Origin: Cirrosporium novae-zelandiae
Lineage: Eukaryota
Assembly (NCBI GenBank): GCA_026023565.1
Contig: JAPETS010000001.1
Location: 1,240,001 to 1,304,000, forward strand
DNA: 64,000 bases
Reading direction: 5' to 3'
Positions 48,178 through 59,078 of the stretch are shown piece by piece (the first letter of the stretch is position 1; the number at the start of each line of letters is the position of its first letter). Under the pieces are notes generated by a model, which saw only the letters and a program-made list of their open reading frames with translations, was not told where the DNA came from and did no database searches. Made by a program: the position numbers and the translations under genes.

Positions 48178-48745
<568 letters not shown>

Positions 48746-49036
48746 AGGAATTTCTCTCCTCATATTGCATGTATATGGCCGACGCAAGGCTAGCCCGCTG
48801 AATATCATCGATTCAAAATGGTCTGGCGTTATGGATTATGAGACACCAGTGATGACCTTATGTTTCTTTATGATAGTTGCAATGACTGTGGCCAGTATGT
48901 CTCATTCTTTAGAGGCTCTTTTCTAGCTAGTTATCCCATAAAATCAATCAATTAAGTCTAGTCTTTACCGCATCCGATTAGCCCAACTCTATGAATCACG
49001 ACAGATGATAATCCCTGCAGGCTGCTCTCATTTTAC

Positions 49037-49442
49037 TTATTTGTTGTCGACGATGATGGTAGCTCCTCGTATGCCAGTTTGGGCGGGTAACCAGTGCAGA
49101 GGCTCTTCGTTGTATGCTGGCCAAGGCGGTATAGTGATAAAGGCAGCGAGTGCCGTGCCCGCTAAGCCGATCCACAGCGTGAGAAAAATGTCGTGTTGGA
49201 AAAAGCCTACAAGAAAAGCGAGTAGCTTATTAAGTTAGTTGGCTTGACTGGATCAATGTTGATATCTCGTTGATCTACATACTCCTGTCACTGGTAGAAG
49301 TATAGTATAGATGAGTTCTGCCAGTCGCTGGCCTTCAAAATCCTGTTAAAAGGTCAGTTTGTAGAAACATAATTACTCTTCAGGTCAAGCGTACTATCTG
49401 GCCTTCAACAGCATCTTGAAGTGGTCGAAGAAGATCGTCCAT
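49037..49442 (-). CDS. SPC1: Signal peptidase complex 12 kDa subunit; exons 49442-49395, 49342-49283, 49225-49037
   Basis: MDDLLRPLQDAVEGQIDFEGQRLAE..., two TM segments and IPPWPAYNEEPLHWL. Absent from the ORF track. Confidence 0.9.
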
Positions 49443-50607
49443 GACTAGAATTGACCAAGCCTAAAATTGCCGACGGTTGAATTAGACGACAACAAACGAA
49501 TACATATATGTTTCATATTAAGGGTAAGAAGGTAATTACCTCTTTTTAAATTCTCACAAGGACTTATATAGATATGGCTAACTGGGGGGTTCAAGAGGGT
49601 TAAGGTTGCTGATGGCTGGCTACAACCCACCAGCCTAAGACCTTTTTTTTGGTTGGGTGACAAGAAGCTGACTCAGAGCCAATTTCATTGGGCCGAGGAC
49701 CAATCCAAACGACTTTGATGGGCACCACCCCTCCCCTCCCCTATAAAAAACTGATCTGAACATTGAAACATCCTGAGATAATTAATAATTGATGTTGATT
49801 ATTTCTAAACCTGGATATCTCCGAAAGACTAATTTTTTTGTCTTTTTTTCTTTTGTTTTCAACAAAAAACAACGATAAGTGGGGACCTATGCGAATTTGA
49901 ATGTTTTATATCAGACCAATTCAATAATATCGAACTACTACAAGGGACTGGGAGGATTGTGTGACGGCAGTCAAGAAAAGTCAAGGAAAAGCCAAACTAG
50001 TCCAGTCAGGGGTAGCCCAGTCAAGGTGGCATTAAACCATTTAGCGTAAAGCCACCCAGAATTCTTTTTTATCTCATGAACCGCTTCCTTTTCTCTTAAA
50101 ATATTTTCCTCTTTCCCAACAACAAGACCTTCTGGTGCTTCTTGGACTCGTCCCAGCTCCTCTAATTATTTTGTTTTGCACATTTTTCCCATGCACTAAT
50201 CAAATCCTGGAAAAAAGGGAAAAAAAAGGAAAATTAGATCCCAACCATAATTCTGCTCATCACAGGTCAACACTTGGACCCGTTCCATTCTCTTTTTCCC
50301 TTCGGAAGTCCTGCGCTCAGGGACCCATACACTAAAGCAACTTCTCAAGCCTCTCGACTGTCCCCCCTCCTATACTTTATTTTAGTCGACTCGACTTATC
50401 TCTCCCATTCCTCCGCCCACTCTGGCTCCTCTACAGCAAATATCTACTCCCAACACCACCAAGTTGGCGGGACTTCACTTCCCCAAGCTCTCCTTCATTT
50501 GTCCCCTTCTTGGCCCCAAGGCCCGGGTCTTCTGCGGAGGCGACAAGAAGCCTCCATAATTGAGCTCTCCAACATCACTACAGGCCAGCATTGCAATCCT
50601 TAATTCA

Positions 50608-50762
50608 CCCTCGATTCTCCCGGTGGCGAGCGCGACGAAGTTGCTTTCACCTCTGGGTACCTCAAGGATAGGGTGAAGAACCCTATCCGTCACGCGTCTA
50701 TCAAATTGGGTGCTTTCGATCGGTGAGCGCTTTTAGCGTCTCACCATAGGAGAAGGCGAGGG
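50608..50762 (+). promoter_or_regulatory. Candidate structured RNA element in the putative 5' leader of ALR1
   Basis: Enclosing helix CCCTCG-A-TTCTCC / GGAGAA-GG-CGAGGG, a 9-bp hairpin at 50666-50688 and a bulged hairpin at 50722-50745. No ATG between about 50200 and 50859. Confidence 0.4.
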
Positions 50763-50858
50763 AGAAGGGCAGCCATCCGAAGTTCAAAAGAACAATCCAT
50801 CTGCATAAATAGTCAAGGATAACAAATTATTTGGGGGAAAGGGAGAATAGAAGTTACA

Positions 50859-52892
50859 ATGGAAAGCCCAAACTCCGAGAAGGACCAGACTAGGTTCAGC
50901 ACCCCAGTTCCAGAACTGGATGATCACCGCGCCCGAGCGTCCCCAGAAACTCGCTCCATTGTTATAGATCCAGCAGCCATTGGATCAACATCCAGACGTG
51001 GTACCATGAATACCGTGCCTTCGTCGCACCATGCAGCCTTATTGCAAGTTAATGAAGCACTGCGCGAAGCGGGCTCCCACTCAAGGGATTTTGAGCAAGC
51101 GATTATCGACGACGATGAAGATGGCAAGAGCCTAGCATCTGCAATGTCAAAGACTCACCACCATCGTCGAGGCACGATACGTCATTCCAAGGTTCCACAA
51201 GACAAACTATCAAGGTCCCGAGACTCGTCTCGCTCAAGCAGTTCTTCAAGGCCCCATTCAGTGGATGCTTTTGCTGATATGAGAACGCGCGAGCGTGCAA
51301 ATACATTTTGCAGCACTTCACCATCTGATATAGAATTGGTTCATCACCGAACCATCTCCAATGGGACACATGGACGCCGCCCTACTTTTGGCGCCGAGAG
51401 CATTGCTCAGCATACGGTTCTTAGTGACAAAGTCTCAGTTCATAATGCAGATGAAGATACGGCCTTCCCACCTTACCAAGAGGTGGACACTCCTGAAATT
51501 GACTTCGAGGAGCTCGAAGAATTTGTATTGGAAAGTTCTCGGGGGCGCCAACTTAACGCTGGGACGCCACGCCGAACTCAGAGCATTAGCTGCCAAAGCC
51601 CACGTAGGAAGATATTCCAAGACCTCCGACAGATGAAGAAAGGAGAGATTCCTAATCTTGCCAATGGTGTTAACCCTGAGCGCCTCGACGATTTCATACA
51701 AGGGACTACGGGGGTCGAATCTGACGAGAAGGTGAACGAGAAAGTGGAGGAATATTTGGACACAAACTTCGGACCCAAGCAACAAGTGCAAAGCGAAATA
51801 ACCCGTTATAGCTTCTTCTCCTCAGAGGTTGATACTACTGCTCATGCCCAAGAGCTTGGAGACTTGCTTCTCCCAGGCGAAAGTTTTAGCAGTATTTTCG
51901 ACCTTCCACCGAATACTGGTGTATGGTGGCTTCATTTGCTCCAACCTCGACCAGATGAGATTGCAGCTATCTGCAAGGCCTTTGATATACATCGCCTTAC
52001 AGAAGAGGATATCCGCGAGAAAGAAGAGCGGGAGAAAGTGGAGCTTTTCCAGAATTATTACTTTGTATCATTCCGTTCATTCAATCAGGACCCCAGCAGC
52101 GAGGACTACCTGGACCCCATTCAGATCTACATCATAGTTTTTCGCTGCGGTGTTTTGAGTTTCTCATACACACATACTCCTCACGCAGCAAACGTACGGG
52201 CAAAAATTGCGAATTACCGTGATACGAGAGGCCTACACAGCGATTGGATTTGCTACGCATTAGTGTGAGTGAAAACTCTAGGTCTCAACTTGACAATGAC
52301 TAACTTAACTAGTGATAATATTGTTGACTCATTTATGCCCCATATCCGTGAGGTCGAGAAAGAAACCGACGTCATCGAAGACCAAGTATTTGTCGCCCGC
52401 GCGGAGGATCTAAGTCAGAACATGCGCCAAATTGGACAATGTCGCAAGAAAGTGATGAGCCTCATGCGGCTTTTGGGAGGCAAAGCCGATGTTATCAAAG
52501 GCTTCGCAAAGCGGTGCAACCCTGATCATGCCATTACTCCGCGTGCAGATATCGGGCTTTACTTGGGTGATATCCAAGATCATGTTGTGACTATGATGAC
52601 GAATCTCGGGCATTATGAAAAAATGCTATCTCGGTCCCATTCCAATTACCTCGCTCAAGCAAATATGGAAAGTATTGCCGCTGGTGCCCGGAACAATGAA
52701 GTCCTCAACCGGATCACACTTATCGCTACTCTTCTAGTCCCACTTAATCTCGTGACAGGCCTGTTTGGTATGAATGTTAAAGTCCCTGGCCGGGAGAATA
52801 ACAGCCTTACCTGGTTCTTCTCCATTGTTGGGTTCCTCGTTGCATTCGTCATGGTCGGTGTAGTCGTCGCGAGAAGACTTCGATTCTTCTGA
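50859..52892 (+). CDS. ALR1: CorA-family Mg2+ transporter Alr1; exons 50859-52264, 52313-52892
   Basis: WWLHLLQP, HRLTEEDI, REKVELFQNYYFVSF, DWICYALVDNIVDSF, YLGDIQDHV and TGLFGMNV (GMN motif) followed by the last TM helix. Confidence 0.95.
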
Positions 52893-53668
52893 TTATATTT
52901 ATCCACCACCTCAAACTTATACATATTCTTCAGCAAAAGGAACAATAATGAGGAATAATGCAGTAATACGAAAAAAGGGAAACATTGGTGCACGACAAAT
53001 GCAATACTTATCTCATTATACGGCCCTGTATCTTGGAATTTTAACTATGATGCCAACTGTTCCAGTCGTGTCTTAATGCCTAGTATTATTTCTACCTGCA
53101 CACCTAAAATTTTTGTATTTCCAGAGCTAATGTCAGAGTTGAAGCTGGAAGTTCTTGGGATACAATATTAGGTGATATGAGTGGAGCTGATACTCATTTT
53201 TTTATCTCATGTGCCTTTTCTAGATAGAAGATTCCATCCAATAGATGGATGGGAAGGGAACTCTTCGTATTCTTAGAAGTCTTGCTTTGGTCTATCTATC
53301 CTGCGGAGGATTTTTTGATTGTCTGCGTGATAAAAATCTGAGTTAGTGTTAGTAATAACGAAGATAAATATGTTAATGCATACTACTTGGACTATTTAAC
53401 CCATGAATGCGAGGACGTGATAGAGTCCGTCGGACCAGACGTGTAAAAGCCTGTCTCTTAGGCCTAGGTGAACCCCTGATGGGAGGGAAAAGAGAGAAAA
53501 GAAAAATGTCTTTAATCATGCTATTTCTCTCGAATGATTCAGAAGTATCGTATCCAGTCCCTCCCCTCCATGTTCCATCTTACATTCATACCACCCATAT
53601 CCTTCCTTCGAGAGGTCAAATATACATTCAAAAAAATACACGCTTAATATTCACATGGCAAAACATAG

Positions 53669-56915: not shown

Positions 56916-57013
56916 CTTTTGAATAAGTTAGCTTAAACCTCCATGGCACCCGGGATGAATATAGAGAGACATACTCATCCTACTCGTCTTACTTGTCCAA
57001 TCCCGTCACTTAC
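56916..57013 (-). promoter_or_regulatory. Predicted 3'UTR intron of eRF1 (NMD-inducing element)
   Basis: Donor GTAAGT at 57013-57008 (alternative GTAAGA at 56992), branch point GCTAAC at 56932-56927 and AAG acceptor at 56916. The donor lies 149 nt after the stop codon. Confidence 0.7.
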
Positions 57014-57162
57014 AACATTGAGCTGCGATGCGGTCTTCGATTGGAAGATTCGTTATCGGCTTGAAGAACGTCGAAGCGACGTTCGTCGCGAAGAGCCGTC
57101 AGCTGGTTGTTTTCTGAAACCGCTGGACGGGCATCCTCGCTCCCGGCGAGGTTGCCAAACCG

Positions 57163-59078
<1,916 letters not shown>

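What the first reader, a model, noticed from the sequence alone, without database searches (positions are those of the whole stretch)
50530..50858. Multi-stem, potentially switchable RNA structure upstream of the Mg2+ transporter ALR1
Seen: about 660 nt with no ATG precede the ALR1 start. Within it, a 155-nt domain is closed by CCCTCG-A-TTCTCC (50608-20) pairing with GGAGAA-GG-CGAGGG (50749-62). It contains a perfect 9-bp hairpin GGATAGGGT-gaaga-ACCCTATCC (50666-88), a bulged hairpin GGTGAGCGC-tttta-GCG-t-CTCACC (50722-45) and a CGCGAC/GTC-ac-GCG helix. TTCACCCT (50604-11) can alternatively pair with AGGGTGAA (50670-77), which would break both the hairpin and the closing stem. Another hairpin GGAGGC/GCCTCC lies at 50536-55. 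Known: bacterial Mg2+ transporter leaders use Mg-sensing RNAs (M-box, mgtA). Inference: this could be a fungal Mg-responsive translational control element. The TSS is unknown.
Basis: partly seen in the sequence, partly recalled or inferred. Interest (0 to 1): 0.7.

Follow-up and report, generated by a model that had tools for sequence, protein, structure and literature searches.

The report
Hidden UUG-start uORFs before fungal ALR1
The long stretch in front of this fungal magnesium-transporter gene is probably not a folding switch but a set of tiny upstream reading frames that start without AUG, one of them a 31-residue peptide kept across distant filamentous fungi, a layout that could let the ribosome itself ration how much transporter is made.

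Summary
The helices exist, but the main conserved feature was missed. Upstream of the ALR1/CorA start (50859) lies a UUG-initiated uORF (50464-50559, 31 codons, ending KPP-UAA). It is complete in 73 of 80 orthologous loci; 2 more hold its 3' end and 5 are too short. In 40 non-redundant sequences the UUG, its context and the Pro-Pro-UAA end are invariant, and changes favour synonymous sites (pS 0.53, pN 0.28). An in-frame CUG lies upstream in 24 of 40. There they bracket a second UUG (50706) at a fixed 13 nt before hairpin B, which opens a 4-6 codon uORF. The proposed switch helix has near-zero predicted probability, and the closing stem is seen only in this genome. Best reading: leaky-scanning control of the AZIN1/ODC-uCC type. 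Relaxed start-codon selection or slow termination at Pro-Pro-stop diverts ribosomes from the transporter AUG. Mg2+ as the signal is inferred (about 0.55), not shown. No RNA data were available, so the TSS is unmapped. Ten literature searches found no description.

The parts
50192..50858 (+). AUG-free region, the probable long 5' leader (true TSS unmapped)
   Evidence: Longest ATG-free gap on the + strand of the window. ATG count in the 600 nt before the AUG: 26 against 181.7 +/- 10.6 in shuffles over 40 sequences; no depletion 900-1500 nt upstream (431 against 380, 33 sequences).
50422..50424 (+). Upstream CUG (A at -3, G at +4), in frame with uORF1 and 14 codons before the UUG; candidate additional start giving a 45-codon form
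   Evidence: Of 25 [CT]TGG sites within 60 nt upstream of the UUG in 40 sequences, 24 are in the uORF frame, 15-42 nt upstream; 15 sequences have none.
50460..50470 (+). uORF1 start: CAAG-UUG-GCGG, a near-cognate UUG at 50464-50466 in strong context
   Evidence: In 40 of 40 sequences under 95% identity, C at -4, A at -3 and TTG GCG G are invariant, while other Leu columns use up to 4-6 codons.
50464..50559 (+). uORF1, 31 codons: (M)AGLHFPKLSFICPLLGPKARVFCGGDKKPP-stop
   Evidence: Complete in 73 of 80 loci (71, plus L058 and L071). Length 29-32 codons. pS 0.53 against pN 0.28 in frame, about equal in the two shifted frames. A model built without the window finds it at E 6e-30.
50551..50563 (+). 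Pro-Pro-UAA end followed by [C/U]UGG-like bases; candidate stall or slow-termination site
   Evidence: PP and TAA in 40 of 40 sequences. The first Pro codon varies synonymously (23/8/6/3) and the last is CCA in 35. The base after the stop is C in 35 and T in 5.
50536..50555 (+).
   Evidence: All 6 Watson-Crick pairs in 11 of 40 sequences, 5 in 14, 4 in 8, 3 in 7.
50608..50762 (+). Long closing stem 50608-20 / 50749-62; predicted in this genome, not seen in relatives
   Evidence: Pair probability 0.85-0.95. No matching sequence in the spacer alignment. Expected pairs enclosing both hairpins range from 0.0 to 9.7 in 21 relatives, 13.6 in the window.
50666..50688 (+). Hairpin A, ending 17 nt before the second UUG
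   Evidence: 95.8% of cells paired over 22 sequences; the window keeps the stem through two-sided changes (U-G to G-C, G-C to A-U).
50706..50726 (+). uORF2: second UUG (CAAA-UUG-G) and 6 codons (LGAFDR), with the TGA inside hairpin B
   Evidence: TTG invariant in 22 of 22 sequences, gap to hairpin B 13 nt in 22 of 22, ORF 4-6 codons. L080 changes the TGA to TAA, breaking a pair but keeping the stop.
50722..50745 (+). Hairpin B, 13 nt downstream of the second UUG
   Evidence: 90.9% of cells paired, mostly one-sided G-U/Watson-Crick changes with 1 two-sided change. Local pair probability 0.98.
50859..52892 (+). ALR1/ALR2-type CorA Mg2+ transporter, 661 aa, with one intron read from the sequence at 52265-52312
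   Evidence: Pfam CorA in both exons. Identical to P0001, 661 aa, labelled Mg(2+) transporter of Cirrosporium novae-zelandiae. N-terminus matches orthologues. A longer paralogue lies elsewhere in the genome.

Best explanation
The leader is a ribosome-read feedback brake on the Mg2+ transporter. Scanning ribosomes pass a series of weak non-AUG starts in strong context (CUG 50422, UUG 50464, UUG 50706) before reaching the AUG. Those that start at uORF1 make a 31-residue peptide that pauses at Pro-Pro-UAA. The pause blocks or queues followers about 30 codons back, at the UUG, which raises initiation there. Ribosomes that get past meet a second UUG held between two hairpins, one of them 13 nt downstream, where a hairpin favours recognition of a weak start. 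When cytosolic Mg2+ is ample, start selection is laxer and more ribosomes are diverted, so less transporter is made and perhaps more mRNA is lost to NMD. When Mg2+ is short they leak through to the AUG. Shown by comparative sequence: the conserved frame, start context, stop, AUG purging and hairpin spacing. Inferred: that these starts are used in vivo, that the peptide stalls, and that Mg2+ is the signal.
For: uORF1 is complete in 73 of 80 loci, that is in every locus with enough upstream DNA. Start context and PP-TAA are invariant in 40 of 40, with synonymous excess in frame only. 24 of 25 upstream [CT]TGG sites are in frame. A profile of the peptide found 46 proteins among 1.84 billion; 44 end in PP at their C-terminus and 2 are repeat artefacts. 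Named hits are 'hypothetical proteins' of Exserohilum, Aureobasidium, Terfezia, Ophiostoma and Histoplasma. The second UUG has fixed 13-nt spacing in 22 of 22. Literature passages read: hairpin optimum 14-16 nt and AZIN1 stalling about 30 codons from its AUU (PMC9082881); non-AUG uCCs with C-terminal adjacent prolines (PMC2811004); terminal diproline stall (PMC9648851); a weak-context start used more at high Mg2+ in the TRPM7 leader (PMC4227784); yeast ALR1 as a uORF-dependent NMD target (PMC9674712).
Against: There is no direct evidence of translation, stalling or Mg2+ response, and the TSS is unmapped. In S. cerevisiae, ALR1 mRNA was insensitive to Mg supply and untagged Alr1 rose less than two-fold on deficiency (PMC3125163). 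In Magnaporthe, MoAlr2 protein rose with EDTA but also at 250 mM Mg2+ (PMC4945025); whether that gene has this uORF was not checked. Similar non-AUG/diproline uORFs answer to polyamines and eIF5A. For UL4, the data favoured 40S dissociation over queuing. The hairpin-UUG-hairpin unit is recognisable in only 40 of 80 loci. Its covariation is thin: 5 two-sided changes, 4 of them from the window's own row, 2 of those in a poorly aligned outer stem. The 13-nt gap is 1 nt short of the quoted optimum.
Confidence: 0.57

Rival explanations
1. Same uORF machinery, different signal. The leader reads polyamine/eIF5A status or general start-codon stringency (eIF1/eIF5), or simply buffers transporter output at a low constant level and feeds NMD. 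Mg2+ is not the specific input.
For: ODC-homologue uCCs have non-AUG starts and C-terminal prolines and respond to spermidine (PMC2811004). Diproline stalls buffer output against changes in ribosome loading (PMC9648851). Native yeast Alr1 levels are only weakly Mg-dependent.
Against: In own-genome searches the peptide matched only at this gene. Its internal motif (SFIRPLLGP) is specific and conserved, which suggests more than a generic PP brake. A Mg channel mRNA regulated by Mg through a weak start has precedent.
Confidence: 0.27
2. The 31-residue peptide works in trans as a micropeptide, for example binding the Alr channel, and its UUG start merely sets a low dose.
For: Amino-acid constraint along most of its length (pN 0.24-0.28 against pS 0.53-0.57); a hydrophobic and basic core. 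Small proteins that regulate bacterial Mg transporters are known (recalled, no call).
Against: The invariant terminal PP-UAA and conserved bases after the stop, the AUG-purged leader and the extra weak starts all point to action in cis. No Pfam match.
Confidence: 0.07
3. Mg2+ acts at the stop codon: the conserved UAA-C context is leaky, and Mg-dependent readthrough or reinitiation at the adjacent CUG changes what happens downstream.
For: The base after the stop is C in 35 of 40 sequences, and the next three are mostly TGG. Mg2+ raises readthrough in yeast (PMC9674712).
Against: The readthrough frame is not conserved: the stop-to-AUG distance falls in all three frames (7/12/21 of 40), and the downstream peptide shifts frame even among Eurotiales-like loci.
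Confidence: 0.05
4. One reading: a Mg2+-binding RNA that switches between folds, like the M-box or the mgtA leader.
For: The region folds better than shuffles, and two hairpins are conserved in a subset of relatives. In the window, hairpin B competes with a longer rod (0.31 globally against 0.98 locally).
Against: The proposed switch helix has probability 0.000. The closing stem is not conserved. Loops vary freely while the conserved unpaired bases are start-codon contexts. No Rfam match. The hairpin unit is unrecognisable in Lecanoromycete-like and Eurotiales-like loci, which all keep uORF1.
Confidence: 0.04

Closest known systems
Non-AUG upstream conserved coding regions (uCCs) of ODC homologues and antizyme inhibitor AZIN1 (PMC2811004, passages read; PMC9082881, passages read)
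   Same: Conserved non-AUG start in Kozak context (AUU, also putative UUG/ACG); adjacent prolines at the C-terminus; conservation concentrated C-terminally; stall site about 30 codons from the start; additional small uORFs at conserved positions.
   Different: Different gene (Mg transporter, not polyamine pathway). 31 codons against about 100 for the Pezizomycotina ODC uCC. Ends exactly in PP-stop. Has a second in-frame CUG and a hairpin-bracketed UUG mini-uORF. Effector untested. No sequence comparison with those uCC peptides was run.
TRPM7 Mg2+-sensitive uORF2 (PMC4227784, abstract and passages read)
   Same: A Mg-channel mRNA with conserved uORFs and a weak start that is used more at high Mg2+, which lowers main-ORF translation.
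   Different: TRPM7 uses AUG starts and its peptides are not conserved. Here the starts are UUG/CUG in strong context and the peptide is conserved.
S. cerevisiae ALR1 uORF and NMD (Johansson and Jacobson 2010, seen only as summarised in PMC9674712 and PMC4227784)
   Same: Same gene family; a uORF limits Mg uptake.
   Different: Described as a short uORF that triggers NMD. No conserved non-AUG peptide is mentioned in the passages seen. The yeast leader could not be fetched for comparison.
Cytomegalovirus UL4 uORF2 terminal diproline (PMC9648851, passages read)
   Same: A uORF ending in Pro-Pro-stop that stalls the 80S ribosome and represses the main ORF.
   Different: Viral, with no known metabolite input in the passages read; no non-AUG start.
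Bacterial Mg-transporter leaders: M-box riboswitch, mgtA leader with MgtL, corA leader with CorL (largely recalled; mgtA leader mentioned; corL in unchecked scan notes)
   Same: Regulatory logic: a leader ORF or structure in front of a Mg transporter, read through translation.
   Different: They act on transcription termination in coupled bacterial expression. No Rfam similarity here.

Membership tests
Conserved-peptide non-AUG uORF (uCC type) | ORF upstream of the main ORF with conserved frame, length and stop | tested here: met
   73 of 80 loci complete, 2 partial, 5 too short; 29-32 codons; TAA in 40 of 40.
Conserved-peptide non-AUG uORF (uCC type) | Purifying selection on the amino-acid sequence | tested here: met
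   pS 0.53 / pN 0.28 in frame; 0.32/0.36 and 0.33/0.35 in shifted frames. One antisense frame mirrors the signal (0.47/0.25), as expected from shared third positions. Pairwise counts, not tree-corrected.
Conserved-peptide non-AUG uORF (uCC type) | Conserved near-cognate start in good context and no in-frame AUG | tested here: met
   TTG with A at -3 and G at +4 in 40 of 40. The nearest upstream ATG lies 158-636 nt before it in the 35 sequences that have one.
Conserved-peptide non-AUG uORF (uCC type) | Lies on the same mRNA as the main ORF | tested here: inconclusive
   No reads. Contig L081 (756-nt leader, no intron where 5 Eurotiomycete-like loci have one, 248 nt after the stop) looks like an assembled mRNA and holds the uORF, but intron loss is an alternative.
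Conserved-peptide non-AUG uORF (uCC type) | Translated, stalls ribosomes and represses the main ORF in response to an effector | not testable with these tools
   Needs ribosome profiling, toeprinting and reporters.
Polyamine-pathway uCC (ODC/AZIN1) proper | Located on an ODC-homologue mRNA | tested here: not met
   The main ORF is a CorA transporter.
Mg2+ riboswitch (M-box / mgtA leader) | Match to the family covariance model | tested here: not met
   No match at E up to 10 other than two chance hits in 49000-52500; none at gathering score in the window.
Mg2+ riboswitch (M-box / mgtA leader) | Conserved, mutually exclusive alternative folds | tested here: not met
   Switch helix probability 0.000; upstream pairing of hairpin A at most 0.005 in 21 of 22 sequences.
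Mg2+ riboswitch (M-box / mgtA leader) | Mg2+-dependent structural change | not testable with these tools
   Needs probing experiments.
Downstream-hairpin-stimulated non-AUG start | Stable hairpin 14-16 nt after the weak start | tested here: inconclusive
   The gap is 13 nt after the last base of the UUG in 22 of 22 sequences, just under the quoted range; stimulation itself is untested.
ALR1/ALR2-type CorA transporter | CorA domain with GMN motif; shorter form, distinct from the MNR2-type paralogue | tested here: inconclusive
   CorA domain and GLFGMN present. Length and domain position (661 aa, from about 354) fit MoAlr2 (622 aa, 310-617) better than MoMnr2 (814 aa, from 491), and a longer paralogue exists in the genome. 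No direct comparison with yeast Alr1/Mnr2 was possible.

The most novel reading that the evidence does not exclude
Filamentous ascomycetes have carried, since before the Pezizomycetes split off, a Mg2+-sensing arrest peptide on their Mg transporter mRNA. Mg2+ would act on the ribosome holding this 31-residue peptide at Pro-Pro-stop. The resulting queue would switch on a ladder of non-AUG starts spaced about one ribosome apart (CUG, UUG, then a hairpin-clamped UUG). This would be a eukaryotic counterpart of the bacterial MgtL leader, with no AUG uORF needed and invisible to annotation.
Probability: 0.3. Interest if true: 0.88.

Novelty: new variant of a known kind. Interest (0 to 1): 0.75.

Why it matters
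How eukaryotic cells sense cytosolic Mg2+ and adjust transporter synthesis is unsettled; the yeast ALR1 data conflict. This leader gives a precise, mutable device: one UUG, one PP-stop, one hairpin at fixed spacing. It can be tested in a fungal cell-free system by titrating Mg2+. It would add a metal ion to the short list of effectors read by nascent peptides on eukaryotic ribosomes. It also explains a set of 'hypothetical proteins' in public annotations as mis-started versions of this uORF.

Tried and rejected
Rfam: nothing credible. RNA evidence: no RNA holder was listed for 49800-53200, which is no evidence either way; no reads could be laid and the TSS stays open. Repeat or transposon origin: the leader matched only itself in the own genome, as did the peptide. 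The 12-base start motif occurs 8 times in the genome against 2 for the reversed control; the other 7 places were not examined. Spliced coding exon instead of a uORF: rejected because the frame ends in an invariant stop, the base pair before TTG is not always AG (A at -1 in 4 of 40, C at -2 in 2 of 40), and the leader has no usable donor site apart from one GTGAG inside hairpin B. N-terminal extension of the transporter: rejected because the frame upstream of 50859 has stops and the stop-to-AUG distance takes all three frames. Antisense coding: one antisense frame mirrors the synonymous signal, but the start context and stop lie on the + strand. uORF at CorA paralogues: the start motif was absent from the DNA fetched around 7 other own-genome CorA loci, but those stretches may not reach the leaders. 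The covariance model could not be run over the own genome. The tree is the quick version only, with the window on a long branch. Literature: 10 full-text searches found no description of this element. The two fungal structured-RNA screens have no ALR1/CorA/magnesium-transporter mention in their main text (term searches). Three supplements of PMC5640933 had no hit; the supplement of PMC8216456 could not be read. Two papers on uORF control were not held. Subscription reviews of conserved fungal uORFs were not searchable, so prior mention cannot be excluded.

Full report
Observation. The ATG at 50191 is the last before 50859, a 668-nt gap and the longest on the + strand of the window. The interval folds more stably than shuffles (z -3.10; the opposite strand gives -3.44). 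On a fixed grid of 320 windows of 160 nt, the one starting at 50601 ranks first (z -3.74), narrowly ahead of one at 57001. In the ensemble of 50560-50858, hairpin A (50666-88) is nearly certain, the closing stem has probability 0.85-0.95 and hairpin B (50722-45) has 0.31, or 0.98 with local pairs only. The proposed switch helix has probability 0.000 and costs 7.9 kcal/mol. Rfam gives nothing credible, and the leader is single-copy in the genome.

The gene. The ORF from 50859 is a CorA-family transporter, identical to a 661-aa protein labelled Mg(2+) transporter of Cirrosporium novae-zelandiae (class Xylobotryomycetes). Its closest other relatives are only about 50% identical over exon 1. Its N-terminus aligns with orthologue starts. 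Size and domain position fit the ALR type rather than MNR2 (passages of PMC4945025), and a longer paralogue exists in the genome; this assignment is by architecture only.

Relatives. A scan of metagenome contigs with an N-terminal alignment confirmed 152 relatives, of which the best 80 were returned. 27 of the 80 also carry the same upstream neighbours (SPC12 and Rbx1 families). By protein similarity and a quick tree they fall near Dothideomycetes, Lecanoromycetes and Eurotiomycetes references, with a few unplaced.

uORF1. The block reads in one frame as a peptide ending in PP-stop. It is complete in 71 of 71 loci with an assigned start and at least 480 nt upstream (7 of these were added by hand after a strict pattern missed them), and in L058 and L071. 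L029 and L030 begin inside it, and 5 loci are too short. In 40 sequences under 95% identity (window included), C at -4, A at -3 and TTG GCG G are invariant, whereas other Leu columns vary synonymously; the residues before the TTG vary. I read this as a UUG start in strong context. Pro-Pro-TAA is invariant. Lengths are 29-32 codons, so all indels keep the frame. Pairwise pS is 0.53 against pN 0.28 in frame, and about equal in both shifted frames; one antisense frame mirrors the signal. These counts are not corrected for relatedness. Within 60 nt upstream, 24 of 25 [CT]TGG sites are in the same frame, at varied distances of 15-42 nt; in the window this is CUG 50422. AUG is purged from the 600 nt before the main start (26 against 182 expected) but not further upstream. 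A profile of the peptide run over 1.84 billion proteins gave 46 hits; 44 end in PP at the C-terminus behind unrelated N-terminal sequence, and 2 are repeats. Of 20 looked up, named ones were hypothetical proteins of Exserohilum, Aureobasidium, Terfezia and Ophiostoma; a further search added Histoplasma. Terfezia is a Pezizomycete and Ophiostoma a Sordariomycete. Their position next to ALR1 was not checked.

Second unit. I selected 21 of the 39 non-window representatives by a pattern on hairpin A's 5' strand, so this set is biased towards the motif. With the window, 93.8% of cells pair and 5 pairs change on both sides (2 of 500 shuffles reach this). Four of the five changes come from the window's row and two of those lie in a poorly aligned outer stem; most support is G-U interchange and free loop variation. 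A profile built without the window finds the window's copy at E 1.3e-5 as its best hit in 64 kb, so the homology is not circular. A covariance model finds the unit in 40 of 80 loci at 31 bits or more. In the tree these are the Dothideomycete-like rows plus L010 and L016, while Lecanoromycete-like and Eurotiomycete-like rows lack it. Between the hairpins lies an invariant TTG, 13 nt before hairpin B in 22 of 22 sequences and 15-17 nt after hairpin A's inner stem, opening a 4-6 codon ORF. In L080 the stop changes from TGA to TAA, which breaks a pair but keeps the stop. Loci without the unit often have a CUG in strong context in the spacer, and four Eurotiales-like loci have a poor-context AUG just after a different hairpin. 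The closing stem and the switch have no counterpart; L010 is the one sequence whose hairpin A is predicted to pair upstream (0.72).

Is it on the mRNA? Not shown. No RNA run was listed. Contig L081 lacks the intron present in five Eurotiomycete-like loci, has a 756-nt leader and holds uORF1, which fits an assembled mRNA, but intron loss would look the same; many Pleosporales-like loci are intronless there too.

Mechanism. The anatomy matches leaky-scanning control by non-AUG uORFs with C-terminal prolines, as in ODC-homologue and AZIN1 mRNAs (PMC2811004). There, a stall about 30 codons downstream raises initiation at the weak start, and hairpins 14-16 nt downstream favour weak starts (PMC9082881). 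Terminal diproline stalls ribosomes in UL4, though dissociation fitted those data better than queuing (PMC9648851). High Mg2+ favours weak starts in the TRPM7 leader (PMC4227784). I infer a feedback brake: ample Mg2+ diverts ribosomes into uORF1 and uORF2, and shortage lets them reach the AUG. Against this, native yeast Alr1 changes less than two-fold with Mg supply (PMC3125163), and Magnaporthe Alr2 rises both with EDTA and at 250 mM Mg2+ (PMC4945025). I put a translated, selected uORF1 at about 0.93, repression in cis at about 0.85, and Mg2+ as the input at about 0.55. The main rival is the same machinery reading polyamines, eIF5A or general stringency. The conserved bases after the stop (C in 35 of 40, then mostly TGG) are unexplained.

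Novelty. The class is known; this instance was not found in 10 full-text searches, in term searches of two fungal RNA-motif screens or in Pfam. What I saw of each paper: term passages for all cited, plus abstracts or outlines for PMC8216456, PMC5640933 and PMC4227784; passages of PMC5487733, PMC7049704, PMC11550727 and PMC13022745 did not mention the element; none was read whole. Johansson and Jacobson 2010 and Kozak's papers were seen only as cited. Subscription reviews and one unreadable supplement may hold a prior mention. Earlier scan notes held no look-alike. One unchecked note describes a UUG/PP-stop uORF before a basidiomycete Mg-pump-like gene, which is a lead only.

Verdict. A real and deeply conserved regulatory leader, but a non-AUG uORF system rather than a riboswitch. 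New variant of a known kind; interest 0.75.

Noticed in passing
window 57010-57165 (- strand): The eRF1 gene (Pfam eRF1 domains) appears to end, after a short intron read by eye, in TGA-C followed by a stable stem-loop (z -3.05; second-best grid window) and an open 50-codon frame. It looks like a readthrough element; eRF1 autoregulation by readthrough in Neurospora is recalled, not checked.
   Followed up: partly
L048, L051, L057, L065, L066, L072, L073, L074, L077, L081, L082 (spacer before the main AUG): A further mini-uORF, CUG-Ala-(x)-stop with A at -3, occurs in 11 of 40 representative spacers; absent from the window.
   Followed up: partly
L070, L072, L074, L081 (25-150 nt after the uORF1 stop): Eurotiales-like loci carry a different conserved multi-stem structure with a 9-10 bp hairpin followed by one or two poor-context AUGs opening a 6-codon ORF; covariation not tested.
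   Followed up: partly
Dothideomycete-like loci, about 20-35 nt upstream of the uORF1 UUG (e.g. L048, L064, L080, L089): A small GACGC-loop-GCGTC hairpin replaces the in-frame CUG seen in other groups (read by eye), echoing the hairpin upstream of the second UUG.
   Followed up: no
window 48400-49550: Rbx1-family gene (+) and SPC12-family gene (-) converge upstream of ALR1; this neighbourhood is shared by 27 of 80 loci.
   Followed up: partly
G000 C37, C41, C61, C63 (two places), C73, C85: Seven other exact matches to the uORF1 start motif CA[AC][AG]TTGGCGGG in the genome, against 2 for the reversed control; they might mark other UUG starts.
   Followed up: no
L058:480, L071:430: These orthologues have a different, longer N-terminus (MSGRLPINSA...) and only 220-240 nt between the uORF1 stop and the AUG, yet keep both leader units.
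   Followed up: no
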